A DNA stretch of 32,000 nucleotides, taken from contig RQZE01000004.1 in NCBI GenBank assembly GCA_003858585.1, positions 1 to 32,000 on the forward strand, read 5' to 3'. This document shows, piece after piece, positions 7,530-27,188 of this stretch. The notes below the pieces were generated by a model that was not told where the DNA came from, searched no databases, and worked only from the letters and a program-made list of their open reading frames with translations. A program made the translations under genes and the position numbers. Position 1 is the stretch's first letter. Each line of letters starts with the position of its first letter. This stretch comes from Erysipelotrichaceae bacterium OH741_COT-311. GTDB lineage: Bacteria; Bacillota_I; Bacilli_A; Erysipelotrichales; Erysipelotrichaceae.

Positions 7530-9767
7530 TTAATTTACTTTTTCTTCTTTTCTATACTTAATAAGTAAAATTATAGATACAACAGATGCAACAAATAACA
7601 ATCCATAGACATTACTTGTCGTATCTCCAGTTTTTGGAATCGAAATTTTTGGTGAATATACAGTCATATCATCATGATCTACATTTGAAATATTAGGTAG
7701 AATAACCTTAGTATTTGTTACAACAAATCCTGTTGGATCTTTTACAATGTTAGTTACATATCCAGGAATTGGTGTTTGTTGAATGCTATATACAATTTCT
7801 TCACCGGTCATCTGATCATACTTGAATAAATTCGGAAAGCTTCCTTGCCAATTCATAGCCTCTTCTATGCGTAATGTTTGTCCTGTATCCACATTATTTG
7901 CCAACAACTTAATCATAGCATGGTCTTTCTTTGGACCGTTCCATTTTACAGTAACTGGAACATGAATTGTTTCTTGACTGATATTCTTAACCACAAAACC
8001 TGATGTAGTATTTCCTTCTACACGTGTTGTATAACCAGGAATAGCAACTTCACGAACTGAATAAACAATCTCATGATTATCACCTAAATCATATTTTGGT
8101 AAGTTCACGAATTGACCACTCCAATTTGATGCTTCATTTACTACAATTTCCTCTCCGGTATCGACATTATCCGCATACAATTTTAAAGTTGCTGAATTTT
8201 TACTTGCTCCATACCATTCTTTTTTTACATTGACTGTAAAGATTTCAAAATTTAAAACATCGAATTCATAAGGACCTTTTATTAGGAGAGAATAATCATA
8301 ATTATCTATTGCTATTTCTTCTATTGAATATTCGATTTCATGACCATCATTTAGATCATATTTGTCTAATCCGTCAAAACTTCCTGTCCAGTTCATTTGT
8401 GCTGTCAATGTAAGACGTTTTCCTGTATCAACGTTGTCTTTTAGCAATTTAAATGTTGCAGATGCAGCTTCTTTTTTCAACCATTTTTTATTAACAACAA
8501 CATTAATTTTTTCATCTGCACGTTTATTCACAAATTCTTTAGTTGCTATTTTTTGATCATTAAAATCACTACTTAATACTTTAATAGGTGTAGTGTTTAA
8601 AAGATACCCGTTTGGTGCTGCAACTTCTGTAATCGTATACGCATCTTTTAACAGATTGTCAAAAATAATCTCTCCTGCAGCATTTGTTTTCAAACGTGCC
8701 AATTCTATCCCTGTAGCATCTCGTACCAATTTAAATTCAGCATCTTTTAAAAGCTGACCGTTTTCATCTTTTTTAACCACTTTAATTTTATATTGGTAAC
8801 CAATAATCTCACTACCACCAACATTATACGTTAAAATAGATGTAACTGGTGGGATAGTAACATTATCCCCTGTCAAAGTAACCGTATTTTTAATTTTTTC
8901 ACCTTGAATTGGATCATAACTTGTTGTTGCACGATAACGAATACGATATCCTTCATTGGCCGCCACATTTCCTAAAGAAATATGGAATCCCTTTTTATCG
9001 GCATCTAAATGAATTGTAAATTGACTTGTAACATCTTCAGATGGATTAAGTTTAAAAGTACCATCTCCTGCATCTACCCATTGACCACGATAAATTAAAA
9101 TATTACTAATATCTAAATTTGTTTCATCACCAAATCGATCTGTAATTACCGCATTATTAATTTCGATATTTTTTTGGTTCACATCAATTCTATAATCTAA
9201 AGAACGCTTATCAGAACCCCCTGTTTTCCATCCTACTTTTTGTAGATCAAACGGTTTAGCTGCAGGCGCACCATTATAATGTATAGAACCATTGTAAATT
9301 GTTGCACCATTTGATACTAAGGTAACCGGAACATCCTGCTCACCAATCACTATTGCGTTTTCTACACGTACTAAGAAGAAAAAGCTTCCCTCAATATCAT
9401 TTAAATTTGCAATTTCATCTGTATATGTGATCAATATCTCATTTTTTGCTTTATTGAAAGTAACATTTGCAAAAGTTTTGTTATCTTTTTTTATTTCAAT
9501 TGGAACTTCTTGTGTAAATGTTAGCTCACGATTCATCTTTATGGTTGTTGTATCACCAGATGAAACAGTACCATTAGGAATTGAGAAATTTAAGTTAAAC
9601 TTCATTTCTTCCCAAATATTTACATTCCCTAGTGGGCTACCATCTCTTTTTGTTAGTGTAATATTCGTAAATGTAATTCCTTTTTCCTCTGCAAAAGTTT
9701 GAATACCTGCAAACAAGAAACAAACAATACTACACATCAAAATAAGCGTTTTCACTATTTTTTTCAT
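7530..9767 (-). CDS. Cell-wall-anchored adhesin (collagen-binding/MSCRAMM-like): N-terminal binding region, SpaA-type domain, three Cna-B repeats, IPKTG sorting signal
   Basis: Signal peptide MKKIVKTLILMCSIVCFLFAGIQTFA with an AGGAG RBS (start 9767). One prealbumin-like domain (YTITEVAAPNGY). Three ~90-aa repeats (V.KKW...A...KLL.DNVDTG...NW.G.F..L.KYD...G.EI.YS..E..I.GY). C-terminus is IPKTGD plus a hydrophobic helix plus KYRKEEK. Confidence 0.85.
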   Translation of the reverse strand: MKKIVKTLILMCSIVCFLFAGIQTFAEEKGITFTNITLTKRDGSPLGNVNIWEEMKFNLNFSIPNGTVSSGDTTTIKMNRELTFTQEVPIEIKKDNKTFANVTFNKAKNEILITYTDEIANLNDIEGSFFFLVRVENAIVIGEQDVPVTLVSNGATIYNGSIHYNGAPAAKPFDLQKVGWKTGGSDKRSLDYRIDVNQKNIEINNAVITDRFGDETNLDISNILIYRGQWVDAGDGTFKLNPSEDVTSQFTIHLDADKKGFHISLGNVAANEGYRIRYRATTSYDPIQGEKIKNTVTLTGDNVTIPPVTSILTYNVGGSEIIGYQYKIKVVKKDENGQLLKDAEFKLVRDATGIELARLKTNAAGEIIFDNLLKDAYTITEVAAPNGYLLNTTPIKVLSSDFNDQKIATKEFVNKRADEKINVVVNKKWLKKEAASATFKLLKDNVDTGKRLTLTAQMNWTGSFDGLDKYDLNDGHEIEYSIEEIAIDNYDYSLLIKGPYEFDVLNFEIFTVNVKKEWYGASKNSATLKLYADNVDTGEEIVVNEASNWSGQFVNLPKYDLGDNHEIVYSVREVAIPGYTTRVEGNTTSGFVVKNISQETIHVPVTVKWNGPKKDHAMIKLLANNVDTGQTLRIEEAMNWQGSFPNLFKYDQMTGEEIVYSIQQTPIPGYVTNIVKDPTGFVVTNTKVILPNISNVDHDDMTVYSPKISIPKTGDTTSNVYGLLFVASVVSIILLIKYRKEEKVN
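7711..8510 (-). repeat. Three tandem diverged ~250-276-nt coding repeats (Cna-B-type domains) inside the adhesin gene
   Basis: Repeat starts read from the DNA: INVVVNKKW at ~8510, TVNVKKEW at ~8238, VPVTVKWNG at ~7961. The last repeat ends GFVVTNT at ~7711. Confidence 0.75.
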
Positions 9768-9959
9768 TTCTATATCTCCTTGCTTTGACATATTACACAT
9801 AATTGTACCATAATTTCAAAAAAAATAAACATAATAATTAGTTAAAAACAGAAATTACATACTAAAAATTATATTTATCCTTTATTTATTATTTATACAT
9901 ATAATCATGTATTTTAATGAACTATTTGATGATCTATATTCAAACAACGTTTAACTATA

Positions 9960-12418: not shown

Positions 12419-12991
12419 TTATTCTTTTATTGTTTTTTTCGTATATAAAATCGAAATTAAACCAATTATCGATACAACTGTAATCGTAAACAAACTCATC
12501 ATATTTGTAGAATCCATTGTTTTAGGAACATTTAAACTTGGAGTTTTATACATATCCACAATTGTAGTTGATTCTACAACCACATCTTCCATTACATTTT
12601 CTTCTGATGTATCAACCTCATCTACTATTGGTGCTGGTGGATTAACCGGAACTGTTGGTTGTGGATCAGCCGGAACTGTTGGTGGTGGATCAGTCGGAGT
12701 TGTTGATGGTGGATCATTCGGAATTGTTGGTGGTGGATCGGTCGGAGTTGTTGATGGTGGATTAACCGGAACTGTTGGTTGTGCATCAACCGGAAATATA
12801 CTAGCAAGTTTAGCTGGTTCACCTAGCCCAATTATAACTACTTCAGCAATGCGTCCCGTTTTAGCTATAAGTTCTAATCCTTCTTCTACACGGAAATGAA
12901 AATTCGCCTTAACTACAAATCTTCCTATCGAAGTCGAAACATAAAACACAAAAACAAATATAAAAACGGCAATCTTTTTTTGTATGTTCAC
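12419..12991 (-). CDS. Small proline-rich surface protein with a VPKTM sorting-signal-like C-terminus
   Basis: GTG start preceded by AGGGGGAA. N-terminal hydrophobic signal. P/T-rich stalk (PSTTPTDPPPT[IV]P.DP repeats). C-terminus is VPKTMD plus a TM helix plus KKTIKE. Confidence 0.7.
   Translation of the reverse strand: MNIQKKIAVFIFVFVFYVSTSIGRFVVKANFHFRVEEGLELIAKTGRIAEVVIIGLGEPAKLASIFPVDAQPTVPVNPPSTTPTDPPPTIPNDPPSTTPTDPPPTVPADPQPTVPVNPPAPIVDEVDTSEENVMEDVVVESTTIVDMYKTPSLNVPKTMDSTNMMSLFTITVVSIIGLISILYTKKTIKE
12636..12783 (-). repeat. Nested coding direct repeats in the proline-rich stalk
   Basis: A 28-nt perfect direct repeat occurs at 12636-12663 and 12756-12783 (120 nt apart). An inner 22-nt repeat gtcggagttgttgatggtggat occurs at 12693-12714 and 12741-12762 (48-nt period = 16 aa). 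Confidence 0.85.
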
Positions 12992-13229: not shown

Positions 13230-15056
13230 TTATTTACTTTTTTGTATATTTAATAACACCACTAATGCAAGTAGCGAAGTATACAATAGTGTAAACCAGA
13301 TTAATACATCCGTAGTATCCATCGTTTTAGGTATATGGAAACTTGATGTTATTTTTGTTTTTTCATTTACGATTGGCTTTACCTGAGCATTTGGTTTTGG
13401 TTGTGGAACAGGAGCAGGATTCATCTTTGGTTTCGGTTTGTGAATCATTTGCAATTGAGCATTCGGCAGTAAATTCCACTGACCGTTCTCCTGCAACTCT
13501 ATACTTCCATCTAAATTTAAGCGAAATACCATTGCTTTAGCTAAACTATATCCATTTGGAGCCTTCACTTCTTCCAATGTATATTGATTAGGTTCTAAAC
13601 TTAAAATTTTTGCCGTTTCCGTTGTATCCCATTCATCTTGAATACTACCATCTTGACGAATAATTCGCAACTTAGCACTAGGTAATTCACCATTTTTATC
13701 TTGTGCAATACTGCTAAAAAGTACATCATGTTTTTTTAAATTATGCACTAACTGTACCATTTTATCTGTAACTTCAAGTCCAACATTTCCAGAAAGAATA
13801 TGTACTGAACTATCTGGACCCACAAGAAACTCCACTGAAGAAGCTTTTTCATACCCAAATGGAGCTTGGATTTCCTCAGCAATATATCTACCAGGAAATA
13901 GCATCAATTGTTTTTTTGTATCAGTAGTTGTAATATTCTCAATGATTTGAGAAGTATTTTTTTCTTTAATAACTAACTGAGTACCCGAAAGCTCTATATC
14001 TTTATCTTCTTCTACACTACTTATTACCACTAGATGTTTTTTTAAGTGATTGAACATTTGAATAGTTGAGTTATTTACAACAACCCACTGATCACCTTCT
14101 TTTTTCTCAAGCAATCCATCTATATTCAATCGAAATAGGACAGGCTGTGCTAACTCATACCCAATAGGAGCTTCTATTTCCTCTAGTTTATACTCCCCTT
14201 TTGTTAATTTTAATTTTTGGGGATGTTTTGTTGTAATCCACTGTGCAATTTCTGTTTCTGTATTATTTGATATTTTTTTTACTACTAATTTTGCATTTCG
14301 AAGCTCCGAATTTTGTCCCTTCTCCATCTTGCTAATAAACACATCGTATTTCATCAATTCGTTCACCACCTGAACAAAATCAACAACCTTTATTTCTCCA
14401 TTTATACTTCTTGATATTTCTCCATTAATTGACACTTCAAAATCGATGCCATCTGTGGGAGCATAGCCTTGCAACCCTCTTTGAACAGTTACCCTGTATT
14501 GTCCAGGTAGTAATCGAATGACTTCCATGTGATCGGTAGTTGTCCATGAATGAATCAATTCACCACTTTGTTTTGATAAATCTAAATGTACACCTGGAAG
14601 CTCTTCAGTATTATCTTCTGAAATATTACTAATTTTTACATCAAAGCCAACAAGTATATGATTAAATACAATTGTTGAATTTGGCACAAAAGAACTAGAT
14701 GCTCCTTCTATTAATCTTAAAGATCCATCATCAAAAACTAAAAATTCTCTTTGAGAAACTTCTGGCTGATATCCATTTGGAGCTATTTCTTCAACCAATA
14801 CATATTTTCCAGATTTCAACTTTACTGTATGTGGAGCATTGCCAGAATCCCAAGACATCAAAATATTTGTATTGGTTGAATCTTTAATACTAAACCTTGC
14901 TCCGGCAAGTTCTTCTGCATTACCTTTTACCACAGAACTGATAATTATATCATATTCATTTTGTTGTGCTTGCACTTTAGAAACCAGCATAAAAGATGAA
15001 ATCATTACAATAAATGCCATAACAAAACCTACAATCTTATTTACCCGAATTTTCAT
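13230..15056 (-). CDS. Surface protein with five tandem SpaA/prealbumin-like fold domains and an IPKTM sorting-signal-like C-terminus
   Basis: Signal peptide ending VQA. Five ~100-aa repeats each carry the Y.L.E..AP.GY motif (YVLVEEIAPNGY, YRVTVQRGLQGY, YKLEEIEAPIGY, YIAEEIQAPFGY, YTLEEVKAPNGY). A P/K-rich linker is followed by IPKTMD plus a TM helix plus QKSK. Confidence 0.8.
   Translation of the reverse strand: MKIRVNKIVGFVMAFIVMISSFMLVSKVQAQQNEYDIIISSVVKGNAEELAGARFSIKDSTNTNILMSWDSGNAPHTVKLKSGKYVLVEEIAPNGYQPEVSQREFLVFDDGSLRLIEGASSSFVPNSTIVFNHILVGFDVKISNISEDNTEELPGVHLDLSKQSGELIHSWTTTDHMEVIRLLPGQYRVTVQRGLQGYAPTDGIDFEVSINGEISRSINGEIKVVDFVQVVNELMKYDVFISKMEKGQNSELRNAKLVVKKISNNTETEIAQWITTKHPQKLKLTKGEYKLEEIEAPIGYELAQPVLFRLNIDGLLEKKEGDQWVVVNNSTIQMFNHLKKHLVVISSVEEDKDIELSGTQLVIKEKNTSQIIENITTTDTKKQLMLFPGRYIAEEIQAPFGYEKASSVEFLVGPDSSVHILSGNVGLEVTDKMVQLVHNLKKHDVLFSSIAQDKNGELPSAKLRIIRQDGSIQDEWDTTETAKILSLEPNQYTLEEVKAPNGYSLAKAMVFRLNLDGSIELQENGQWNLLPNAQLQMIHKPKPKMNPAPVPQPKPNAQVKPIVNEKTKITSSFHIPKTMDTTDVLIWFTLLYTSLLALVVLLNIQKSK
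13440..14954 (-). repeat. Five diverged tandem ~300-nt coding repeats (SpaA-type domains)
   Basis: Periodicity read from the protein, residues ~35-539. The repeats are diverged at the DNA level. Confidence 0.7.
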
Positions 15057-15307: not shown

Positions 15308-16177
15308 TTACATTTCATCTAATTCTTTTAAAGTAAGTCCTTCTTTATTTTTCCATTCTGTTCGTCCATTCCTACTCATCCCAAGAATAAACATCGCTGC
15401 ATAAGATGGACTGTTAAATAGATAATCTTTTGTTATTCGCCCATTCACAATTTCATTATTCTCTCTTAAATTATCTCTTAACAATTTTATTGATTTAGGT
15501 AAAGTTTCTGAATCATTCATTTCTATCATACTATCTTTTAATACAACAAAACCTTCATTTGTTCTTTTACATTTTGCTTTAATTACATAATTTGATTTTT
15601 TTGTTTTACTATTTAGATTATAAATTTCTTCAGTTGTAGATGTTAATGCATTATTGATTAATGGTACAAAGATTTTATACCCCAAAACGCCTAGCACCAT
15701 CTTTGAATATTCTACAAAATCTTCAAGTTCAGATTCTTTTTCTTCCGTTACATTTCCTGGATTTGGTTCATTCTCATTTTTTACAATATACCTTTGTGCT
15801 TCTTTTGCTAGATTTGTAAATTTATTTTCAAGATAACTTATTTCAGTTGGACCAAATGAATTGTTTTGTGTAGTCAGTATCACAACATCTGTAAAATAAA
15901 ACTCATCTTTTAAATGTTCCAACACTCTATGTAAGATACATTCTTTATTTTTTCTAACACCCGCTTGCCCGATATAAACTTCATCTTGTCCATCATCATT
16001 TTTAAAAAATAAGAAATAAACACCACTTTGTTTTAAATCTTGACGAATTTTACAACTATCAAGAAGAGATCGTGGAATTTTATAAGCTAATCCAGTCCAA
16101 TTTAATAGTGTGCATTTAATTCTACCTGTAACTTCTCCATCCATAAGAAATAAATTAAAATTTTTACTTTTATTCAT
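15308..16177 (-). CDS. GIY-YIG nuclease-family protein with a C-terminal DUF4357-type domain
   Basis: GVYFLFF...EVYIGQA (GIY-YIG core) followed by ...LENKF (family helix). The C-terminal ~90 aa (EGFVVLKDS...SPSYAAMFILGMSRNGRTEWK) matches my memory of DUF4357. Confidence 0.7.
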   Translation of the reverse strand: MNKSKNFNLFLMDGEVTGRIKCTLLNWTGLAYKIPRSLLDSCKIRQDLKQSGVYFLFFKNDDGQDEVYIGQAGVRKNKECILHRVLEHLKDEFYFTDVVILTTQNNSFGPTEISYLENKFTNLAKEAQRYIVKNENEPNPGNVTEEKESELEDFVEYSKMVLGVLGYKIFVPLINNALTSTTEEIYNLNSKTKKSNYVIKAKCKRTNEGFVVLKDSMIEMNDSETLPKSIKLLRDNLRENNEIVNGRITKDYLFNSPSYAAMFILGMSRNGRTEWKNKEGLTLKELDEM

Positions 16178-17392: not shown

Positions 17393-17986
17393 TTATAATA
17401 TTTTATACATATCACTTTTATAAAACATCACTGATTCATTTTTATTTACATTTTTCAGTACTATCATGGTGTTATACACATCTGGAAATGGCGATACCAT
17501 TCCCATACATGCCATACCAAACATCAACCCATTCCATTCTTTAAATTCAGCAGGGCTTATTATAAAAACCATTAATGGAACTATGCCAAGTATAAACGGC
17601 AATAAACACATTAGTATAAATCTATTTCGTTTTAATGGATAGGATGCTAATGCGACAAAAATGAATTTTCCTTTGATTTTTCCGATGATCACATTTGCTT
17701 CCTTAGGATAGACAATTCCATGTAACCATTCATGAACAATCAGTAACAAATAACCCAATACAAAACCAATAAAAATAAATATTGGAGAAATTACAATTTC
17801 TTTACATGCAATCGTTTTGCATAACATAACGATAAAAAGCAAAAGGCACAGAATTACCGCAATCGGTGTAGCCTTTTTCATCATCTCTTCCACACTATGA
17901 GGTGTTTCTATTTTCACAGCATTATCCGGTAAATTAGCAACTTGATACTCATTGATATCATTTATTGATAGTCTTAACTTTATCAT
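17393..17986 (-). CDS. DUF3267-family membrane protein (putative zincin-like, HExxH)
   Basis: Four TM helices with HEWLHG embedded after TM2. Size and layout match the DUF3267 family. Confidence 0.55.
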   Translation of the reverse strand: MIKLRLSINDINEYQVANLPDNAVKIETPHSVEEMMKKATPIAVILCLLLFIVMLCKTIACKEIVISPIFIFIGFVLGYLLLIVHEWLHGIVYPKEANVIIGKIKGKFIFVALASYPLKRNRFILMCLLPFILGIVPLMVFIISPAEFKEWNGLMFGMACMGMVSPFPDVYNTMIVLKNVNKNESVMFYKSDMYKIL

Positions 17987-20527: not shown

Positions 20528-20773
20528 TTAGTATACATGAATCATCATACCTTGATATAGATTTTGCTTTTTAAGACTACTATAAGGATTAAGAATACCT
20601 CCAGAACTTGCATCCACATAGATGTTATTACTAGAAAATATTTCTCTTTCTAAAAGGGTATTCAAAGCATTTAAGTTTTCCGATAAAGAAAAATGTATGC
20701 TTAAATACGTTTCAAATGTTTCATTTGTTTTTAAAGATTTAATTTTTACATAAATCATATTATTCATTTGCAT
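20528..20773 (-). CDS. YukD/EsaB-like small ubiquitin-fold protein (T7SS accessory)
   Basis: About 76-81 aa, alternating beta-strand pattern IYVKIKSL...FETYLSI, and a C-terminal L....L..G..I.V similar to YukD/EsaB. Possible starts at 20773, 20767 or 20758 overlap or abut the essC-like stop (20760-20762). I recall no strong signature motif for this family, so confidence is moderate. Confidence 0.5.
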   Translation of the reverse strand: MQMNNMIYVKIKSLKTNETFETYLSIHFSLSENLNALNTLLEREIFSSNNIYVDASSGGILNPYSSLKKQNLYQGMMIHVY

Positions 20774-23700
20774 AGCTTATTTTAATTATTTTCCCTTTAT
20801 AACAATATAATCCTTGATTATCTTCCACATAATCTTTATAAGGTATATGAAATGTAAATTGTTGTTGATAACCATCTCCCAGCCACAATAACGTGGAATA
20901 AAAATAGTTATTTTTTAATATAGATTTATTATAATCATAAGGATTTAAAAGTATGATTTGTTGTTCCTTTAAGTTTGTAATTTCTTGATACTGATCAATG
21001 ACTTTTATCTTACTTACTTTATTAAGTACCTGTTTATATTTTATAAGCAAATCATCATATAAACTTGAAATCACTAGAATAGGTTGCAGTGTAAAATCAA
21101 AATATACTTCTTGTAGTGTTATTTCATCGATACCTAATAAAAGTTTAGAGTTTTCATATTTCATTGTTATGGTTTTGGGCATTTCTAAAGTAAATGAAAT
21201 ATCTTTTTTTTGATAGTTAAAGGTAGATGGATGAGATAACTTAAAGATATATGGCATCGTAGTATAGGTAATACCATCAAATTCACTTTCTAATGTTGTT
21301 TTGACTACCTTATTAAATATCGCCATTAATTCATTAGTGTTACTTTTACCAATCACATAAGACTTAGAAGCAAGCTGAAACATATTAAAAGAAATGGAAG
21401 AAGAAATCGTTGTAAAAACCATAAATCTTAAGGAATACATACTATAATTTGCCATAATATTTAAAAGAAATTCTTGTAGATGTGGGTATAATTCTTTAAA
21501 GACATGATAACCATTAATAATTACTAGGGTATCTTGTTGATTATTCATCAAATAATGAAACACTCTTTGTATCAATTCTTTTTGATAACCATCAATGTAT
21601 AGCCACAAGATGTCATAATTAAGATATGTTTCAATACCAAAGCGATTAAAATCAATGAAGATAACACGATAATCAAACATAGATAACGATGTAAGAATAT
21701 TTTCAATACATCGATGTCTAGCTTCTTTAAAAAGAGAAAAAATAAATGTGATTGGATATTGTTTTAAATTATGAATAAATAGCCCCTGTTTCGCTTGATC
21801 GATATAATCAATTTCTCCCAAGAGTATCTCATATTTTTGCAAATCATACTGATATTTATGTAATAGCTCTTCCTGATTACATTCAGTTAACGGTTGTTGC
21901 CATATAGTTCTTGCTTTGTACTGATTGGCATACATGATAATGTTTTGCATAATACAATCAATTTCTTTTTTCATTGGTTTTTGTACGGTAATACTTTGCT
22001 TTTCAACCATACACCTAGAATTTAATAACGCAACTTTTAAAGTGTCATTTGGATTTTCAATGTTCATTGTACTTAGGGCTGCTTTAGCAAACTTAAGTTT
22101 CTGATCACAAAGAAAATAAAATTCTCCTGGATGTTTAATCATACTGGCTACATTAGACTCTATCATCTCTTTAGAATCTTGAGCTGTTTGCACTTTTAAA
22201 CATAATTTAAATCTTGCATTAGACCATATCTGATCATCCACTACACCACTTGGTTTTTGTGTAGCAAGTAATAAATGTATTCCTAGTGATCTGCCTATTC
22301 TTGAAATGGATATTAAATCATGAATAAATTCAGGTTGTTGTTTTTTTAATTCAGCAAACTCATCTGCTACAACAATTAAATGCGATAATTTTATAAGACC
22401 ATATTCTTCTTTATATAATTGTTGATATAAATCGATATTCATAACAGGTTCATTTGTCCTATCGATCATCTTTTTAAAAGCTTCTTGACGTAATTGAACT
22501 TCTTTCTTTAGTGCTAATATACTTCTTTGTATTTGTTCAGGTTGAATATTTGATATGCTTCCAACCAAATGAGGTAACACATACTGATCATTTTCAAACG
22601 CTAAACTTATACCTCCTCCTTTATAATCAATAATAATGAATTGCACATCACTTGGATGATAATTCATTGCCAAAGATAAAATTAAAGTTATTAGCAACTC
22701 GCTTTTTCCACTTCCTGTACTACCAGCAATCAAACCATGGGGACCCATACCTTTTTCATGTAAATCTATTTGAAAAAAAGTATGTTGTACCTTACCAATG
22801 TTGGCTTTTAATCCATGATATGGTTTATTTAATCGATAATTTCTTTCAATTTGAGTAAGATCTTGAATATCCAATATCGATAAGCATCCTTCTTTTACAT
22901 CGTGATTTAGATATGTGTTAGAAATATATAAATTTAAAGCATTAAAGTCAATATCAGTTAGATCATAGATATTGGTTTGATATTCCATACCATTTATTAC
23001 AATAGTATTATGAAATTGATCATTATAGATGATACATTCGCTATGAATATTAACTTTTTCTTTAGAAGTTACTAAATAGATATAAGATAATTTTTTAGGT
23101 GAAAAATCATAATCGAAATTACAGTTTTGAACAAACACAATTGTTGGCAAATCTTGAATATGAATGTAATTGTCTTGATATTCTTGTTGTGATGTGAATA
23201 CAAAATGTGCATATTTGTTTCTAACAAATGATAGTGTATTTAGATATGAATGTCTATTCAAAAAGAATGCATCACATAAAATGATAATTTGTAAAACATC
23301 ATAACCATGATAGCAAACCAACTGCAATAATATATATTTAAACATATATTCATCTTTTGAACATAAAGTAATATGTCTATATTTTTTAAAATCTAAGATA
23401 AACATCGAATGTTCATGTCTACTTAGCTGTTCTTTAAAACATTCTATTTTAAAATACAATTCATCTTCATCCACTAATGTATTTGGATACTTAAGATGAT
23501 ATTCTTCTTTTGATTGTCCAAATCCTAAGGAAATAGTTAAAAAGTCACTATGTGATGGTAAACGTTGAAATAAAGTTGGAAGACGATTGACAATCATTTC
23601 ATGCATATCTTTGATATTGGCATAGTTTTTTATACGTTGATTTAAGATATCATTAGTTTTACTTTTATATTCTTTTAATAATGCATCTAAATATGTTACA

Positions 23701-24539
23701 TAACGTTTCCTACGTTTTTGATTGTGTTTCTTAACACCTTTATGTTCAAAATAGCGTTGTAGTGGATTCCACAGTATGGTACTAATAAACATGGTAATCG
23801 GTAGAATTAACATAGGTATAATTTCAATTATTTTTCTTCTATTCAACAATGCATTGTAAAAAGTAAGTCCACCTACTGATAAAGAAGCCAATGACATTGT
23901 TAAAGCCGGTCCCATTTGTATTACAAAAGGATTTTTATGATACTCTAAATAACGCATTGGTTCTTTTAATGTAATCGTCGTTTCCATCTCTTCCACATAT
24001 CTACGATAGTGCTTAAAAAAAGAAATTGTATTTATGGTAGATTGAAAATCATATTGTGGTTTATATGGTTTTAAATCACAAAAAAAATTACATGCAATGA
24101 ATTTGTCATGGTAAATAATTTTATAATGTTTAAAATCGATATAATCAAAGTTTTTTAATAATCCTTCTTTCGTATATTCATCATTAAGAAATACTTCCAC
24201 ATTAGAGCGTAAATAGCCATCTATAATAGATAATTGTAATTTATTTTTCACTATATAATCACTATGTTTATAGTAATGATATTCCATTGGAAGATCAATG
24301 ACTTCAATCGTAATTGGATAGTATATATCTTGGCAATCTATTTTATATTTTGACTTAATAAATGGTAATTTTTGTTTTAACTGAATGTTTAAATGTTGTG
24401 ATAATTGAATCATCAATTGTTGGTCATAATATACTTTTACTGTTCCATTCATCAATGAAAAAGAAGTTTGAAATCCTTCTTTTTCGATCAATGCAACATC
24501 CGTTTTATGCTGATTTTCAATGAGACGTAGATACTTCAT
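20760..24539 (-). CDS. essC: EssC/YukB-like FtsK/SpoIIIE-family type VII secretion ATPase (short form, single intact P-loop)
   Basis: About 200-aa N-terminal soluble region. Two TM helices (residues ~205-232 and ~237-258) followed by a basic stretch KKHNQKRRKRY. Walker A GSTGSGKS lies at nt 22701-22724 and Walker B LIVVADEFAE at nt 22350-22379, followed by LLLATQKPSGVVD. Two further FtsK-like segments lack any GxxxxGK[ST]. Confidence 0.9.
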   Translation of the reverse strand: MKYLRLIENQHKTDVALIEKEGFQTSFSLMNGTVKVYYDQQLMIQLSQHLNIQLKQKLPFIKSKYKIDCQDIYYPITIEVIDLPMEYHYYKHSDYIVKNKLQLSIIDGYLRSNVEVFLNDEYTKEGLLKNFDYIDFKHYKIIYHDKFIACNFFCDLKPYKPQYDFQSTINTISFFKHYRRYVEEMETTITLKEPMRYLEYHKNPFVIQMGPALTMSLASLSVGGLTFYNALLNRRKIIEIIPMLILPITMFISTILWNPLQRYFEHKGVKKHNQKRRKRYVTYLDALLKEYKSKTNDILNQRIKNYANIKDMHEMIVNRLPTLFQRLPSHSDFLTISLGFGQSKEEYHLKYPNTLVDEDELYFKIECFKEQLSRHEHSMFILDFKKYRHITLCSKDEYMFKYILLQLVCYHGYDVLQIIILCDAFFLNRHSYLNTLSFVRNKYAHFVFTSQQEYQDNYIHIQDLPTIVFVQNCNFDYDFSPKKLSYIYLVTSKEKVNIHSECIIYNDQFHNTIVINGMEYQTNIYDLTDIDFNALNLYISNTYLNHDVKEGCLSILDIQDLTQIERNYRLNKPYHGLKANIGKVQHTFFQIDLHEKGMGPHGLIAGSTGSGKSELLITLILSLAMNYHPSDVQFIIIDYKGGGISLAFENDQYVLPHLVGSISNIQPEQIQRSILALKKEVQLRQEAFKKMIDRTNEPVMNIDLYQQLYKEEYGLIKLSHLIVVADEFAELKKQQPEFIHDLISISRIGRSLGIHLLLATQKPSGVVDDQIWSNARFKLCLKVQTAQDSKEMIESNVASMIKHPGEFYFLCDQKLKFAKAALSTMNIENPNDTLKVALLNSRCMVEKQSITVQKPMKKEIDCIMQNIIMYANQYKARTIWQQPLTECNQEELLHKYQYDLQKYEILLGEIDYIDQAKQGLFIHNLKQYPITFIFSLFKEARHRCIENILTSLSMFDYRVIFIDFNRFGIETYLNYDILWLYIDGYQKELIQRVFHYLMNNQQDTLVIINGYHVFKELYPHLQEFLLNIMANYSMYSLRFMVFTTISSSISFNMFQLASKSYVIGKSNTNELMAIFNKVVKTTLESEFDGITYTTMPYIFKLSHPSTFNYQKKDISFTLEMPKTITMKYENSKLLLGIDEITLQEVYFDFTLQPILVISSLYDDLLIKYKQVLNKVSKIKVIDQYQEITNLKEQQIILLNPYDYNKSILKNNYFYSTLLWLGDGYQQQFTFHIPYKDYVEDNQGLYCYKGKIIKISYANE

Positions 24540-26532
24540 CTTGTACTAATACACTTAAAGCTGTGTGATATTTTTGATCTTTGGTTTTTATGATAATCAT
24601 GGTGCTTCCTTTATTTATACCTGTAATCAATCCTTTTTCATCGACATCAGCTACTTTACGATCCTTACTTTCAAATAGCAAATCATTTATTTGATAGTTA
24701 CTTGGTAAACCTTTAATATGAATTCTTACGTTTTTATTTTTAACAATTAAATAATTATAACGATCTATTAGGATTTTATTTGCATTTAATAAAGGTACTT
24801 CTAACGGTTTAAAACTAGTTTTATGTTCAACGGTACACTTTGGTACAAAGAGCCAATTTTCTAAATGTGTGTATTTGTTTTTGAAAATTTGATGTTTATC
24901 GTCTAAAAGTTCAAACGTTTTCCCTAAATTAAAACGTCCAAGCAATGTATTTTGCGAGTTGACTGTTATATTTAATAGCCAATGTAACGATAAATCTCCA
25001 CAAATCTGAATATTGGAATACTTTTTACTTAACTCATCAAGATAGTCCATTGGTAAATCACTTTGTTCACTGCTTACTTGATTGTTAGTATCAAATATAT
25101 GAATCGTTGACTTTATTAATCCTTTTATACCAGCTTTTAAACCTATATCCATAATTGGTTGTCCAAGCACTCTCAATGCAGCTTGTAATCCAACATATCC
25201 ATTAAAACTCGCTTTTAACACAAAATCTAAATCACCATCAAAATCATTTAGAAAACGAAAATGACCATCTTTTATTTCAAATCCATAACGATTATTAGTA
25301 TCAAAAGTTAATTCCACTCTTCCACTTGCATAAATATGAAGATTTAATGTTAAATACATATCAGCAATAGGGGCATTGGGTAGTGAAACTTTTAATTTCA
25401 ATATTGGTATAGTAATATCAGTAATTTCTTTATCCTTTTGAAACGACTTTGTAATTGTTGTAAAAAATTGACTGACATCTTTATGTAGATGTTTATATAC
25501 ATCAATATAGTTTGATCTATTTAAACCAAAACTACTTAATGTTTTAAAATCCAATCGAAAATATGCATTTTGTAAATTTTTGTATTCATAATTTGGTTGT
25601 ATATCATAGACATCCAGTTCTCCAAATAGGTTATAGTTTCCATTCACTTTCTTTGAAACGTATACATGAATTTTATTTTTATAAATAGAATAACTAACTT
25701 TAAAATCTTTATATACAAATTCTTTTACTTTATTAACTTGAGTTGAAATATAATTCTTTTCCACAAGATCTTGAATATTAAGTGTTTCTTTGACATCATG
25801 TAAATCAATAATATCTGCATCTTCAAGATTTAATGTAAAACTACCCGATAACTTCATGCTTTTCAAAACATCTTCCAATACAGCATCCTTAAGTTGAAGT
25901 TCATAATATTCTTTTTTATCTATAACATCAACAACTTCTTTTAATACGTATCCATCATTACTTTGATATTGAATAACATCTCCTTGACTAACATCCTTAT
26001 CCGTGATAATTTTTTCATCTTTAACAATTCCTTCAACCTCAATGACATTTGTTTTATAATCAATTTCAAAATAATTTTCAAATACCTTATGATTTAATTT
26101 TTCTTTTATAAATGCAATCGCAGCTGTCGCTTCTTCAATTTCTACATAATCAGGTTTGTCATGAAGTATTGCACACGGTTCATATTCGTCGATAATTAAA
26201 CGTTTTATAGTTATGCAATAATATTCTTTTGTAATATAGTCATCTAATTTAAAAGTGTCTATTTCCTCAATAACACCCCAATTATTTAATGCAACTACAA
26301 TATCATAGGCTTCATCATTCTTTAACGAAAGGAATTGTTCTTGTACATTTTTGTTATCTTTAATATTTAAGTTATCACTGATAAGTGTAAACCAATCTCT
26401 AACAGTTATAAAATCTTGATGTATTGTTTGTTTACAACCACTTAAGCAAGTAATCAATATAGTGATTATAAAATACAAACAATACTTCTTAAATTTAAAA
26501 ACTTGATGCATTTGAATTAATTGTTGTTTCAA
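24517..26532 (-). CDS. Lipoprotein of unknown function with a C-terminal bacterial Ig-like (Big_2) domain, embedded in the T7SS-like operon
   Basis: Signal peptide with lipobox LSGC (Cys33 from the 26532 start; alternative ATG at 26511). A ~550-aa beta-rich region that I cannot assign. The C-terminal ~70 aa (VRIHIKGLP...VADVDEKGLITGINKGSTMIIIKT, nt ~24520-24729) fit the Big_2 pattern. It overlaps both neighbours (23 nt with essC-like, 17-38 nt with the WXG-like gene). Confidence 0.75.
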   Translation of the reverse strand: MKQQLIQMHQVFKFKKYCLYFIITILITCLSGCKQTIHQDFITVRDWFTLISDNLNIKDNKNVQEQFLSLKNDEAYDIVVALNNWGVIEEIDTFKLDDYITKEYYCITIKRLIIDEYEPCAILHDKPDYVEIEEATAAIAFIKEKLNHKVFENYFEIDYKTNVIEVEGIVKDEKIITDKDVSQGDVIQYQSNDGYVLKEVVDVIDKKEYYELQLKDAVLEDVLKSMKLSGSFTLNLEDADIIDLHDVKETLNIQDLVEKNYISTQVNKVKEFVYKDFKVSYSIYKNKIHVYVSKKVNGNYNLFGELDVYDIQPNYEYKNLQNAYFRLDFKTLSSFGLNRSNYIDVYKHLHKDVSQFFTTITKSFQKDKEITDITIPILKLKVSLPNAPIADMYLTLNLHIYASGRVELTFDTNNRYGFEIKDGHFRFLNDFDGDLDFVLKASFNGYVGLQAALRVLGQPIMDIGLKAGIKGLIKSTIHIFDTNNQVSSEQSDLPMDYLDELSKKYSNIQICGDLSLHWLLNITVNSQNTLLGRFNLGKTFELLDDKHQIFKNKYTHLENWLFVPKCTVEHKTSFKPLEVPLLNANKILIDRYNYLIVKNKNVRIHIKGLPSNYQINDLLFESKDRKVADVDEKGLITGINKGSTMIIIKTKDQKYHTALSVLVQDEVSTSH

Positions 26533-26788
26533 TTGTTGAATATGTATTTGCAGTAAATTCTAAGAATTTTGCATACGATTCTATAATTTCCTTATCTTCT
26601 TCAAATACATTTGAAAAGTTAGAAAAACGACTACGAATCGTTTCGGAACCTTCACTCATCCATACAAGACTTAAATCTTGCATTTCCTTTTTAACCTTTA
26701 ACAATGCTTCATACATATTGTTGTTGATACTACGAATGGTGGACGCTAAGTTATTTACTTCATCCATTGTAATTTTAATTTCATCCAT
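26495..26788 (-). CDS. WXG100-like small helical protein with a degenerate WxG (W43-MSE-G47) and a C-terminal YxxxE
   Basis: 97 aa with a helix-turn-helix layout. Paralogous to the upstream gene (aligned FLKNTARAYRETQDEI vs FLEFTANTYSTIETTI). W is at the same position 43, but the Gly is displaced by 2 residues. Y83-S-T-I-E87. GGAGG RBS. Confidence 0.55.
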   Translation of the reverse strand: MDEIKITMDEVNNLASTIRSINNNMYEALLKVKKEMQDLSLVWMSEGSETIRSRFSNFSNVFEEDKEIIESYAKFLEFTANTYSTIETTINSNASSF

Positions 26789-26797
26789 AATAGCCTC

Positions 26798-27097
26798 CTA
26801 ATTTACTAAAGCCTTAGCTTGATTATAAATTTCATCTTGAGTTTCACGATATGCACGTGCAGTATTCTTTAAAAATTCACTGTACTGCGTCATAATGTTA
26901 CTTAATTGTTTTAAGTCATCATGAAATCCTTTAATTTGATTTGAAAAAGCAAGATTATCTTTTCCATTCCAATTGTTTTGCATCGTATCTACCGCTTGAA
27001 ACAATTGATTGAAGAGTCGTTGATATTCTTGATTTAACGAATCGATGATGGATGCTGAAGCATCCAAACGTTGTGGTTGACATATAATTTGTCTCAT
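26798..27097 (-). CDS. esxA: WXG100 family (EsxA-like) type VII secretion substrate
   Basis: 99 aa with W43-N-G45 at the centre of two predicted helices. N-terminal pattern I...P..L...A..I......... is typical of ESAT-6-like proteins. AAGGAGG RBS. First gene of the cluster. Confidence 0.75.
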   Translation of the reverse strand: MRQIICQPQRLDASASIIDSLNQEYQRLFNQLFQAVDTMQNNWNGKDNLAFSNQIKGFHDDLKQLSNIMTQYSEFLKNTARAYRETQDEIYNQAKALVN

Positions 27098-27116: not shown

Positions 27117-27146
27117 TTTATAGTCACTCAACGATAAATGTCTTAA
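27117..27146 (-). promoter_or_regulatory. Candidate sigma-A promoter of the T7SS-like operon
   Basis: On the minus strand: TATAAA (27117-27122) lies 19 nt upstream of the ATG, with a weak TTAAGA -35 at an 18-nt spacing (27141-27146). It sits between the rbfA terminator and the esxA-like RBS. This is weak and based on sequence only. Confidence 0.3.
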
Positions 27147-27181
27147 AAAATAAAAACCATATATAGAATTCCTATATATGG
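27145..27181 (-). terminator. Rho-independent terminator of the nusA-infB-rbfA operon
   Basis: 10-bp perfect arms ccatatatag (27157-27166) / ctatatatgg (27172-27181) with a 5-nt loop, followed on the minus strand by TTTTTATTTTTT (27145-27156). It starts 8 nt after the rbfA stop. Confidence 0.8.
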
Positions 27182-27188
27182 CTTTATG

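What the first reader, a model, noticed from the sequence alone, without database searches (positions are those of the whole stretch)
20528..27097. Compact type VII-like secretion locus lacking EssA, EssB/YukC and EsaA/YueB
Five tightly packed, overlapping minus-strand genes form one apparent unit.
- In order: a WXG100 protein (WNG at residues 43-45), a paralogous WXG-like protein, a 671-aa lipoprotein with a C-terminal Big_2 domain, a 1259-aa EssC-like FtsK/SpoIIIE ATPase, and a ~80-aa YukD-like protein.
- The canonical Bacillota T7SSb (S. aureus ess, B. subtilis yuk) also needs EssB/YukC (pseudokinase membrane protein), EsaA/YueB (large polytopic protein) and EssA. No ORF here has those architectures.
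- There are also no LXG/PF04740-type toxins, immunity genes or DUF-type chaperones.
- The gene order is non-canonical, with the YukD-like gene after essC.
- This could be a reduced or alternative T7SS architecture in which one lipoprotein substitutes for the usual membrane scaffold, or a previously uncharacterised WXG100 export module.
Basis: partly seen in the sequence, partly recalled or inferred. Interest (0 to 1): 0.85.

Follow-up and report, generated by a model that had tools for sequence, protein, structure and literature searches.

The report
Compact lipoprotein-containing type VII secretion variant
This is a real five-gene type VII-like protein export module, conserved across Erysipelotrichaceae (including Solobacterium), that pairs the usual motor and two small secreted proteins with a lipoprotein of unknown fold instead of the usual membrane partners, so it looks like one more undescribed variant of a known secretion system.

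Summary
Five overlapping minus-strand genes at 20528-27097 encode a WXG100 protein, a second WXG100 paralogue, a lipoprotein, an EssC/YukB-type ATPase and an 81-aa protein.

The window comes from Erysipelotrichaceae bacterium OH741_COT-311. In GenBank three of the five genes there are "hypothetical protein".

The same gene order recurs in 11 divergent lineages (26-55% G+C where measured, one of them Solobacterium). It usually sits directly after rimP-nusA-infB-rbfA. No YukC/EssB, EsaA, EssA, kinase or LXG toxin gene is recorded within ±10 kb where the contigs reach that far.

The lipoprotein family has 178 clusters at E<1e-30. Its model shows a lipid anchor, an SLH-like helical region, a long-stranded β domain with no PDB or viral structural match, and a Big_2 domain.

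The WXG pair looks ESX-like. One partner keeps WxG and the other keeps YxxxE, each in 10 of 10 lineages aligned.

EssC has a single Walker A/B pair.

None of the published subtypes T7SSa-j has this composition, so I file it as a new variant of a known kind.

Two points remain open. The 81-aa protein could not be shown to be YukD-like. Absence of essB/esaA/essA elsewhere in the genome could not be tested.

The parts
27117..27146 (-). Putative promoter of the module: TTAAGA (27146-27141), 18-nt spacer, TATAAA (27122-27117). The ribosome-binding site AAGGAGG lies at 27110-27104.
   Evidence: Read directly from the sequence. It is a weak consensus match and was not reported by the scan, which requires a T at the last -10 position. 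This is inference only.
27153..27185 (-). Terminator-like hairpin (15-bp stem followed by a T-run) between the rbfA stop codon and the first WXG gene. It separates the module from the nusA-infB-rbfA operon.
   Evidence: terminator scan; sequence.
26798..27097 (-). WXG-A, an EsxA-like WXG100 protein of 99 aa with W43-N44-G45. GenBank RRC93062.1, 'WXG100 family type VII secretion target'.
   Evidence: PF06013 46.9 bits and TIGR03930 51.3 bits, both above cut-off. WxG is conserved in 10 of 10 lineages aligned. It is 100% identical in L001 with dS 0.076. Name.
26495..26788 (-). WXG-B, a paralogous EsxB/CFP-10-like partner of 97 aa. It has W43-M44-S45 where the WxG would be, and Y83-S-T-I-E87 (YxxxE) near the C-terminus. 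GenBank RRC93061.1.
   Evidence: NF035934 125.7 bits (cut-off 100) and PF06013 28.1 bits. W-x-S-[DE] and Y-x-x-x-E are each conserved in 10 of 10 lineages aligned.
24517..26532 (-). Conserved lipoprotein, 671 aa from TTG 26532 and more likely 664 aa from ATG 26511. Layout: signal helix plus lipobox LSGC33; SLH-like helical region ~44-147; small β domains 154-242; long-stranded β-meander domain ~268-560 with an invariant Cys pair (C511, C566) and conserved E419, R426, H478, D513, N525, H556, E558, N559; C-terminal Big_2 ~590-665. GenBank RRC93060.1, 'hypothetical protein EII25_02305'.
   Evidence: Family of 178 clusters at E<1e-30. Alignment A1 and its conserved columns. Among members, 30/44 hit Big_2 and 8/44 hit SLH. 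The family profile hits the Sap SLH region at E 2e-4. AlphaFold2 model: pLDDT 83.4, pTM 0.69. Foldseek against PDB and BFVD matches only the Big_2 part.
20760..24539 (-). EssC/YukB-type membrane ATPase, 1259 aa. Layout: β-rich N-terminal region ~1-205 with a degenerate FHA-like part; two TM helices ~212-257; DUF/stalk region; one intact P-loop domain (Walker A G606-STGSGK-S613, Walker B VVADE 723-727); a ~360-aa C-terminal region with no nucleotide-binding motifs. GenBank RRC93059.1, 'hypothetical protein EII25_02300'.
   Evidence: PF01580 94.7 bits with a single stretch. TIGR03928 390 bits against a 778 cut-off. The family profile is colinear with YukB residues 156-966 at E 1.5e-114. There is one Walker A and one conserved D1 Walker B in each of 5 lineages; 2 of the 5 also carry extra loose Walker-B-like strings outside D1. 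FHA Pfam hits 1 of 5 members at E 0.08.
20528..20773 (-). Small 81-aa cytoplasmic protein that overlaps the end of essC by 14 nt. It is a candidate ubiquitin-like (YukD/EsaB/TsxB-type) cofactor, not proven. Conserved C-terminal motif: G75-x-x-h-x-V-Y81.
   Evidence: A 75-92 aa ORF follows essC in 8 of the 9 lineages whose contig reaches that far. It is absent in L005. The alignment has an invariant Gly and a terminal Tyr. The single-sequence AF2 model gives β-β-α...β but at pLDDT 44. No YukD hit was found.

Best explanation
The locus is a self-contained, vertically inherited type VII-like secretion module of Erysipelotrichaceae. Its core set differs from every described subtype.

**Proposed working (shown versus inferred).**
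1. The two WXG100 paralogues form an ESX-like heterodimer. Together they carry a bipartite export signal: WxG on partner A and YxxxE plus the C-terminal tail on partner B. The motifs are shown; the dimer is inferred from T7SSa and Poulsen-type WXG100 knowledge.
2. The dimer is recognised by the EssC-like ATPase and pushed across the membrane. The ATPase is anchored by two TM helices and probably hexameric. It runs on a single active P-loop domain (D1). The degenerate C-terminal region acts only as a substrate-docking module. Homology and motifs are shown; the mechanism is inferred from EssC/EccC.
3. The ~80-aa protein binds between the FHA-like N-terminus and the DUF domain of EssC, as YukD does in B. 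subtilis. This is inferred from position and size only.
4. The lipoprotein is exported by Sec and lipidated. It sits on the outer face of the membrane, holds on to the wall through its SLH-like region, and provides the extracytoplasmic part of the machine (conduit, wall passage or docking platform). EsaA/YukC ectodomains provide that part in T7SSb, and TsxI is proposed to provide it in T7SSd/e/j. This is inferred from strict synteny, gene overlap and predicted topology.

No toxin cargo is linked and the module sits beside a housekeeping operon. The main substrate is therefore probably the WXG pair itself.
For: **Component identities.**

**Conserved synteny.**
- WXG-A, WXG-B, lipoprotein and EssC, usually followed by the small ORF, recur in the same order in the window/L001, L002, L004, L005, L006, L008, L010, L011, L012, L013 and L015.
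- These loci span 26-55% G+C where measured.
- One lineage is assigned to Solobacterium, and the window to Erysipelotrichaceae bacterium OH741_COT-311.
- Six lineages have the module immediately after rbfA. Two more (L004, L013) have one gene in between.

**Missing canonical partners.** None of the loci has a YukC, EssA, EsaA, kinase, phosphatase or LXG Pfam hit on record within ±10 kb where the contig reaches that far (same calls).

**Selection.** dN/dS is 0-0.36.

**Signal motifs.** WxG and YxxxE are conserved reciprocally on the two paralogues, 10 of 10 each.

**EssC.** The profile is colinear with YukB through FHA2, TM, DUF and D1.

**Lipoprotein.**
- The Cys33 column is nearly invariant and a signal-like hydrophobic stretch ending in Cys is seen in almost all members.
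- The model is confident, pLDDT 83.
- The family is large: 178 clusters at E<1e-30.

**Literature precedent.**
- YukD clamps the YukB FHA and DUF domains (PMC12637312).
- Five-component T7SS variants exist, and envelope-spanning Ig-domain components have been proposed (PMC11217815).
Against: - Only ±10 kb around each module could be read, and less where a contig ends (L002, L011). essB/esaA/essA or a kinase could lie elsewhere in the genome.
- The small protein has no detectable similarity to YukD. It is missing in L005.
- EssC scores only half the TIGR03928 cut-off. It lacks Walker motifs in D2 and D3, which are thought to matter for regulation and substrate binding in characterised systems.
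- The lipoprotein's role rests entirely on guilt by association. It could be a co-transcribed surface protein.
- There is no experimental evidence of secretion.
Confidence: 0.68

Rival explanations
1. Split-locus canonical T7SSb. The module is the esxA-essC part of an ordinary T7SSb whose EssB/YukC, EsaA/YueB and EssA genes lie elsewhere in the chromosome. The lipoprotein is an accessory factor.
For: - EssC is closest to T7SSb proteins. YukB is the best solved relative at 387 bits for the family profile, against 226 bits for an actinobacterial EccC-type FtsK/SpoIIIE ATPase (4nh0) and 140 bits for EccC5.
- TIGR03928 is the best NCBIfam model.
- An FHA-like N-terminal region is retained. In YukB that region is the YukC-binding surface.
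- The genome outside ±10 kb was not searchable.
Against: - In all 11 lineages the same genes stay together. No T7SSb membrane gene is within 10 kb where the contigs reach that far, even though T7SSb core genes are normally contiguous.
- EssC is far below the T7SSb equivalog cut-off.
- The FHA region is nearly unrecognisable: Pfam FHA hits 1 of 5 members at E 0.08.
- No paper in the held library reports T7SSb in Erysipelotrichales.
Confidence: 0.12
2. The lipoprotein is a passenger. The secretion unit is only EssC plus the small protein plus the WXG pair. The lipoprotein is a Sec-exported wall-associated adhesin or enzyme that happens to be co-transcribed, or it is a wall-remodelling helper analogous to EssH rather than part of the translocon.
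For: - Its recognisable parts (SLH-like, Big_2) are typical of surface proteins.
- Its conserved polar residues (E419, R426, H478, D513, H556, E558, N559) and its Cys pair could mark a binding or catalytic site.
- In L015 a 916-aa glucosaminidase-domain protein follows the module. This shows that wall enzymes can associate with it.
- The S. aureus T7SSb recruits the hydrolase EssH (PMC13059805, abstract).
Against: - The lipoprotein sits invariably between WXG-B and essC, with overlapping reading frames, in 11 of 11 lineages. This argues for a stoichiometric partner.
- Every family member whose context was examined lies inside such a module.
- No enzyme fold or family was detected by Pfam, NCBIfam, PDB sequence search or Foldseek.
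Confidence: 0.13
3. Not an active exporter. The module is a decaying remnant, or the WXG proteins and the FtsK-like ATPase serve an intracellular or non-secretory role.
For: - D2 and D3 of EssC have lost their nucleotide-binding motifs.
- essC is truncated in L006 (1061 aa) and split in L010 (948 + 366 aa).
- No cargo genes are linked.
Against: - All five ORFs are intact and under purifying selection.
- Walker A/B of D1 and the WxG and YxxxE motifs are invariant across genomes of 26-55% G+C.
- D1 is the domain known to be essential for T7 secretion (established knowledge of EccC/EssC).
Confidence: 0.05

Closest known systems
T7SSb (S. aureus Ess; B. subtilis Yuk: YukE-YukD-YukC-YukB-YueB)
   Same: - The EssC/YukB-type ATPase is colinear with YukB from FHA2 through the TM helices, DUF/stalk and D1.
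- A WXG100 substrate gene sits at the head of the operon.
- A ~80-aa protein is encoded next to essC.
- The host is a monoderm member of the Bacillota.
   Different: - No EssB/YukC pseudokinase, EsaA/YueB or EssA is present in the locus.
- There are two non-identical WXG100 proteins rather than one homodimeric EsxA.
- EssC has one P-loop domain instead of three and scores 390 bits against the 778 equivalog cut-off.
- The small gene follows essC rather than preceding it.
- No LXG toxin/immunity region is present.
- A lipoprotein is present as a fixed member.
T7SSg (Garrett, Higginson & Palmer 2024, PMC11217815; Acetivibrio, Paenibacillus)
   Same: - It is a five-component compact system: two WXG100 paralogues, a small TsxB protein, the ATPase and one extra, otherwise unique component.
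   Different: - The fifth component there is TsgL, a DUF5050 β-propeller. Here it is a lipoprotein with SLH-like, long-strand β and Big_2 regions, and none of the 44 members hits DUF5050.
- TsgC lacks FHA domains, whereas this EssC keeps an FHA-like remnant.
- T7SSg is always next to Tad pilus genes. This module is next to nusA-infB-rbfA.
T7SSa / ESX systems (EsxA-EsxB heterodimer)
   Same: - The pair is heterodimer-type, with the WxG motif on one partner and YxxxD/E on the other. This matches the bipartite ESX secretion signal (established knowledge; Daleke et al. 2012, cited from memory).
- In one lineage (L010) essC is split roughly at the D1/D2 border, like EccCa/EccCb.
   Different: - No EccB, EccD, EccE or MycP is present.
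- The ATPase is closer to EssC than to EccC (387 bits against 140-226 bits).
- The host is a low-G+C monoderm.
TsxI of T7SSd/e/j (Garrett et al. 2024)
   Same: - It is a Sec-exported extracytoplasmic component carrying Ig-like domains, and it is proposed to span the envelope as EsaA does.
   Different: - TsdI is ~1650 aa with many Ig-like domains and a C-terminal TM helix.
- The protein here is 671 aa, anchored by an N-terminal lipid, has one Ig-like domain and a large unmatched β domain.
- The TsxD kinase and TsxH that accompany TsxI are absent here.

Membership tests
Type VII secretion systems in the broad sense (WXG100 + EssC/EccC) | A WXG100-family protein is encoded at the locus | tested here: met
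   PF06013 scores 46.9 and 28.1 bits (cut-off 27.3). TIGR03930 scores 51.3 bits (cut-off 44.85). NF035934 scores 125.7 bits (cut-off 100).
Type VII secretion systems in the broad sense (WXG100 + EssC/EccC) | A membrane-bound FtsK/SpoIIIE-type ATPase homologous to EssC/EccC | tested here: met
   PF01580 scores 94.7 bits. There are two TM helices at ~212-257. The family profile is colinear with YukB 156-966 at E 1.5e-114.
Type VII secretion systems in the broad sense (WXG100 + EssC/EccC) | The ATPase carries a DUF domain plus three C-terminal NTPase domains (four in all) | tested here: not met
   Each of 5 lineages has one Walker A and one conserved D1 Walker B, and only one PF01580 stretch. The C-terminal ~360 aa match nothing. 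L006 lacks the last domain.
Type VII secretion systems in the broad sense (WXG100 + EssC/EccC) | EssC-dependent export of the WXG100 proteins | not testable with these tools
   Needs a secretome comparison between wild type and an essC mutant.
T7SSb (Ess/Yuk) | EssC reaches the T7SSb equivalog model TIGR03928 | tested here: not met
   390 bits against a cut-off of 778.4.
T7SSb (Ess/Yuk) | EssB/YukC, EsaA/YueB and EssA are encoded with essC | tested here: not met
   No such Pfam or NCBIfam hit appears among the window ORFs scanned. None appears among the called genes within ±10 kb, as far as the contigs reach, in the 10 other lineages (L001 has the same ORF layout as the window).
T7SSb (Ess/Yuk) | EssB/EsaA/EssA are present anywhere in the genome | not testable with these tools
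T7SSb (Ess/Yuk) | A YukD/EsaB ubiquitin-like protein (PF08817) | tested here: inconclusive
   - No PF08817 hit at E<=10 for 4 members.
- hhalign against YukD gives probability 0.1-0.3%.
- Pairwise z-scores are about 2 summed and 3 for two members.
- The weak best ubiquitin-like hit is 2daj at E 1.5.
- Size, position and the low-confidence ββα...β prediction are compatible with the fold.
T7SSg (Garrett et al. 2024) | TsgL DUF5050 β-propeller component and adjacency to Tad pilus genes | tested here: not met
   No DUF5050 hit in any of the 44 lipoprotein family members. The model has 14-23-residue strands, which is not a propeller. The neighbours are housekeeping genes.
T7SSd/e/j (Garrett et al. 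2024) | TsxD Ser/Thr kinase, plus TsxI (a large multi-Ig protein with a C-terminal TM helix) | tested here: not met
   No kinase is recorded in any locus examined. The lipoprotein has one Ig-like domain, an N-terminal lipid anchor and no C-terminal helix.
ESX-type WXG100 heterodimer | Two paralogues, with WxG on one and YxxxD/E on the other | tested here: met
   WXG-A has W-x-G in 10 of 10 lineages aligned. WXG-B has Y-x-x-x-E in 10 of 10 and W-x-S in place of WxG. Physical dimerisation was not tested.
Bacterial lipoproteins | An N-terminal signal peptide ending in a lipobox Cys | tested here: met
   The N-terminus reads KFKK, then a hydrophobic stretch, then L-S-G-C33. The Cys column is at least 90% conserved in 44 members. 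No dedicated predictor (SignalP/LipoP) was available.

The most novel reading that the evidence does not exclude
Erysipelotrichaceae run a minimal, self-sufficient type VII machine. It has an EssC with a single active ATPase domain, a tiny cofactor, and a lipoprotein whose central long-stranded β domain is a new fold that forms the extracellular half of the translocon. No polytopic or pseudokinase membrane partner is needed. The module is inherited vertically next to the nusA-infB operon and carries no toxin cargo. It would therefore serve a housekeeping or host-interaction role through the WXG heterodimer itself, rather than interbacterial warfare.
Probability: 0.4. Interest if true: 0.75.

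Novelty: new variant of a known kind. Interest (0 to 1): 0.6.

Why it matters
**Mechanism.** Which T7SS components actually form the channel is an open question, and so is what the minimal machine is. A naturally reduced system would be a tractable model for structural and mechanistic work. This one has one active ATPase domain, no EssB/EsaA/EssA, and a single extracytoplasmic lipoprotein.

**Taxonomic reach.** It extends the T7SSa-j catalogue to Erysipelotrichaceae. This family includes oral and gut commensals and pathobionts such as Solobacterium, in which T7SS has not been described.

**Annotation.** In public annotation the motor is called 'hypothetical protein', 'FtsK/SpoIIIE domain-containing protein' or 'DUF853 family protein'. 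The system is therefore invisible to annotation-based surveys.

**A family with a context.** The lipoprotein family (178 clusters at E<1e-30) has no recognised domain beyond Big_2. It now has a functional setting.

Tried and rejected
**Searches that fell short.**
- The search for homologous proteins with the lipoprotein, and with its 44-member alignment, returned only 2-3 hits because of the word-index limit. The exhaustive HMMER search was needed to see the family.
- The genome-contig scan with EssC found only one locus, at 93% identity.

**The small protein.**
- The single-sequence AlphaFold model had pLDDT 44, and its Foldseek hits are meaningless.
- These searches found no significant YukD similarity: a profile search of PDB sequences, Pfam at E<=10, hhalign against YukD, and shuffled pairwise alignment.

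**EssC domains.** hhalign between the segments N-terminus, D0, D1, D2 and D3 detected no internal homology. Whether the C-terminal region is a decayed ATPase fold remains open.

**Literature.** Searches for T7SS, WXG100 or EssC together with Erysipelotrich* found nothing relevant. One badly chosen search was wasted.

**Readings considered and rejected.**
- The lipoprotein as an EsaA, EssB or EssA homologue: no family hit and the wrong topology.
- A conjugative TraB/FtsK-type DNA translocase: rejected because of the colinearity with YukB and the WXG pair.
- A mobile island: rejected because of the conserved chromosomal position after rbfA and a composition like that of the flanks.

Full report
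**1. Observation.**

- WXG-A, 26798-27097, 99 aa.
- WXG-B, 26495-26788, 97 aa.
- A 671-aa ORF, 24517-26532. It starts at TTG. The ATG at 26511 gives the 664-aa form that is the one found in public data.
- A 1259-aa ORF, 20760-24539.
- An 81-aa ORF, 20528-20773.

The last three junctions overlap by 17-38, 23 and 14 nt.

A terminator-like hairpin (27185-27153) follows rbfA. A strong ribosome-binding site and a weak promoter-like TTAAGA-18-TATAAA precede WXG-A. There is no terminator after the small gene.

G+C is about 27-30% across the module, like its flanks. The window contains no tRNA or Rfam match.

**2. Source organism and current annotation.**

The window's IF-2 is identical to RRC93064.1 of Erysipelotrichaceae bacterium OH741_COT-311. 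In GenBank:
- The two small proteins are 'WXG100 family type VII secretion target'. The second is also named 'pore-forming ESAT-6 family protein' in relatives.
- The lipoprotein, the ATPase and the 81-aa protein are 'hypothetical protein' (EII25_02305, _02300, _02295).
- Orthologues of the ATPase are called 'FtsK/SpoIIIE domain-containing protein' or 'DUF853 family protein'.

The locus is therefore not recognised as a secretion system in public annotation.

**3. Component identities.**

*WXG-A and WXG-B.* WXG-A passes PF06013 and TIGR03930. WXG-B passes PF06013 narrowly and NF035934 clearly. I aligned both paralogues from ten lineages:
- WXG-A always has W-x-G followed by [KAS]-D-N.
- WXG-B has W-x-S-[DE] at that position.
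- WXG-B has an invariant Y-x-x-x-E (Y83-E87 in the window protein), followed by a conserved x-x-N-A tail.

This reciprocal distribution is the pattern of ESX-type heterodimers. There the WxG of one partner and the YxxxD/E of the other form one composite signal. That statement rests on established knowledge and was not tested here.

*The ATPase.*
- Pfam finds a single FtsK_SpoIIIE stretch (575-764).
- TIGR03928 (EssC, Firmicutes) is the best NCBIfam model, at 390 bits against a 778 cut-off.
- A five-lineage profile (A3) aligns colinearly with B. subtilis YukB (PDB 9qks) from residue 156 to 966. That covers the end of FHA2, the TM region, DUF/stalk and D1, at E 1.5e-114. An actinobacterial EccC-type FtsK/SpoIIIE ATPase (4nh0) and EccC5 score 226 and 140 bits.
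- Each of the five sequences has exactly one Walker A (GxTGSGKS; K612 in the window protein) and one conserved D1 Walker B (hhhhDE).
- The last ~360 residues match nothing. They show no detectable similarity to D1.
- That region is partly missing in L006 (1061 aa) and is a separate ORF in L010.
- Two hydrophobic helices lie at ~212-257.
- The N-terminal ~200 residues are β-rich. In homologues they carry FHA-like strings (tIGs..NDi ... vNd....L..GD.I.I), but Pfam FHA is seen in only 1 of 5 members at E 0.08.

*The lipoprotein.*
- On its own it hits only Big_2, just under threshold.
- The word-indexed search found two relatives.
- The exhaustive HMMER search found 178 clusters (50% identity level) at E<1e-30, mostly full-length proteins of 590-750 aa.
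- In a 44-member alignment, the Cys at position 33 after a signal-like hydrophobic stretch is at least 90% conserved.
- Invariant positions are G404, G417, E419, R426, G468, C511, N525, E558, C566, P610 and G642. Near-invariant positions include H478, D513, H556 and N559.
- Of the 44 members, 30 hit Big_2 and 8 hit SLH. The family profile hits the SLH region of B. anthracis Sap at E 2e-4.
- AlphaFold2 with this alignment gave pLDDT 83.4 and pTM 0.69. The model contains:
  - a signal helix (2-30);
  - a helical region (44-147);
  - small β units (154-242);
  - a meander of strands 14-23 residues long (about 268-560);
  - an Ig-like domain (about 590-665).
- Foldseek against PDB and BFVD matched only the Ig-like domain, with query TM-scores around 0.12.
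- No EsaA, EssB, EssA or DUF5050 model matches any member.

*The 81-aa protein.*
- It has homologues of 75-92 aa directly after essC in 8 lineages.
- They share a C-terminal G-x-x-h-x-V-Y motif and no Gly-Gly.
- It matches no Pfam or NCBIfam model, including YukD.
- hhalign to YukD gives probability 0.1-0.3%, although the global alignment runs end to end in the expected register. I had first confirmed that my YukD sequence is identical to 2bps/9qks.
- Shuffling tests are not significant.
- The single-sequence model is unreliable.
- It does resemble (pairwise hhalign E 1.3e-4, probability 27%) an 84-aa protein that overlaps the end of a 1536-aa 'type VII secretion protein EssC' in a Bacilli MAG (L014).

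I therefore treat 'ubiquitin-like TsxB' as a plausible but unproven assignment.

**4. Conservation of the module.**

I looked up contigs for ten family members (nine lipoproteins and one EssC relative). Together with the genome hit L001, this gives 11 lineages:
- window/L001/L003;
- L002;
- L004;
- L005;
- L006/L007;
- L008/L009;
- L010;
- L011;
- L012 (Solobacterium sp. by IF-2 and by protein names);
- L013;
- L015.

Findings across these lineages:
- All have WXG-A, WXG-B, lipoprotein and EssC in that order, with overlapping or nearly abutting genes.
- The small ORF follows wherever the contig continues, except in L005.
- Lipoprotein identities to the window protein are 21-35%, and EssC identities are 25-32%.
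- G+C of the loci ranges from 26% to 55% where measured.
- In six lineages the module directly follows rimP-nusA-ylxR-infB-rbfA. In L004 and L013 one gene intervenes.
- None of the called neighbours within ±10 kb, as far as the contigs reach, has a YukC, EssA, EsaA/YueB, kinase, phosphatase, FHA-protein, EspG or LXG Pfam hit on record.
- Within the window, no other ORF that I scanned hits a T7SS family.

Between the window and L001, both WXG proteins are identical despite dS of 0.06-0.08. dN/dS is 0.11 for essC, 0.30 for the small gene and 0.36 for the lipoprotein.

**5. Interpretation.**

The evidence supports a vertically inherited, self-contained five-gene unit.

*Shown:*
- homology of the motor to EssC/YukB;
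- the WXG100 identity of the two small proteins and their complementary conserved motifs;
- the lipoprotein signature and the predicted extracytoplasmic multidomain build;
- strict synteny and purifying selection.

*Inferred:*
- The pair is a secreted heterodimer recognised through the WXG-B tail.
- EssC works with D1 alone.
- The small protein plays the YukD role. In B. subtilis, YukD is clamped between the YukB FHA and DUF domains and stabilises the complex (PMC12637312).
- The lipoprotein supplies the extracellular part of the machine. T7SSb obtains that part from EsaA and the YukC ectodomain, and Garrett et al. propose it for the Ig-rich TsxI in T7SSd/e/j.

The SLH-like region suggests attachment to the wall. 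The invariant Cys pair and the polar residues of the central domain suggest a specific binding or catalytic site that I cannot assign.

No toxin/immunity genes are linked and the module has a housekeeping address. This points to the WXG pair itself as the main cargo and to a physiological or host-directed role. That last point is speculation.

**6. Comparison with what is known.**

Garrett, Higginson & Palmer (2024, PMC11217815) defined T7SSc-j from RefSeq EssC neighbourhoods. None of these subtypes contains a lipoprotein or Big_2 component. No Erysipelotrichaceae genus name that I searched for occurs in the text or in the held supplements.
- **T7SSg** is closest in gene count, with two WXG100 proteins, TsgB, TsgC and one unique protein. 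Its unique protein is a DUF5050 propeller, TsgC lacks FHA domains, and the cluster sits beside Tad pilus genes.
- **T7SSb** has the closest motor sequence but fails on the other features. The equivalog score is not reached, EssB/EsaA/EssA are absent from the locus, there are two WXG proteins, and there is one P-loop domain.
- **T7SSa** shares the heterodimer logic only.

The held library contains no 'T7SSk', and no paper linking T7SS, WXG100 or EssC to Erysipelotrichales.

I therefore classify the module as a new variant of a known kind, not as a member of T7SSb or T7SSg.

**7. Limits.**
- Genome-wide absence of canonical partners could not be tested.
- Two fold libraries were unavailable.
- Taxonomic assignment rests on two named lineages.
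- Nothing here demonstrates secretion.

**8. Verdict.**

The finding is real. The locus is best described as an undescribed, compact, lipoprotein-containing T7SS subtype of Erysipelotrichaceae.

Confidence in that explanation is 0.68 and interest is 0.6.

Noticed in passing
window 7530-9800, 12419-12991, 13230-15056 (all minus strand): Three surface proteins end in a hydrophobic helix preceded by I/VPKT[GM]D instead of a canonical LPXTG sortase motif. They are a Cna_B/collagen-binding/Big_8 adhesin, a proline-rich 190-aa protein, and a protein with five SpaA-type repeats. This may reflect a sortase with unusual specificity in this lineage.
   Followed up: partly
L010 12256-16552: In this lineage essC is split into a 948-aa ORF (N-terminus to D1) and a 366-aa ORF (the degenerate C-terminal region), separated by ~350 nt with stops in all frames. 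This recalls the EccCa/EccCb split of ESX systems, or it may be a recent disruption.
   Followed up: partly
L015 13919-16669: A 916-aa protein with a glucosaminidase (PF01832) peptidoglycan-hydrolase domain overlaps the end of the small gene of the module in this lineage. This recalls the hydrolase EssH that the S. aureus T7SSb recruits.
   Followed up: no
L014 199-7696: The nearest 'named' EssC is 1536 aa, from a Bacilli bacterium MAG. It sits in yet another unannotated arrangement. Seven small ORFs of 94-185 aa lie upstream, two of them with WSGK motifs like WXG100 proteins. An 84-aa ORF overlaps the essC stop and weakly resembles the small protein of the present module (hhalign E 1.3e-4). 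None of the neighbours has a Pfam hit on record.
   Followed up: partly
L005 16017-16287 and L006 12109-15294: There is natural variation in the module. L005 has a 1320-aa EssC and no small ORF after it. L006 has a 1061-aa EssC that lacks the last domain. Both suggest that the C-terminal region and the small protein are the most dispensable parts.
   Followed up: partly
window 5167-5481 (minus strand): This 104-aa ORF has a weak hit to the middle of the ADP-ribosylglycohydrolase family (profile positions 119-169 of 287). It is probably a gene fragment or pseudogene.
   Followed up: no
window 15308-16177 and 17393-17986 (minus strand): These are a DUF4357 protein and a DUF3267 putative zincin peptidase with predicted membrane helices. 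Both lie between the module's downstream housekeeping genes and the surface-protein cluster. Their function is unknown.
   Followed up: no
window 26495-26788; NCBIfam NF035934: WXG-B belongs to a curated NCBI family named 'pore-forming ESAT-6 family protein'. I could not find the experimental basis of that name in the held literature. Members appear to be the second WXG gene of this module.
   Followed up: partly
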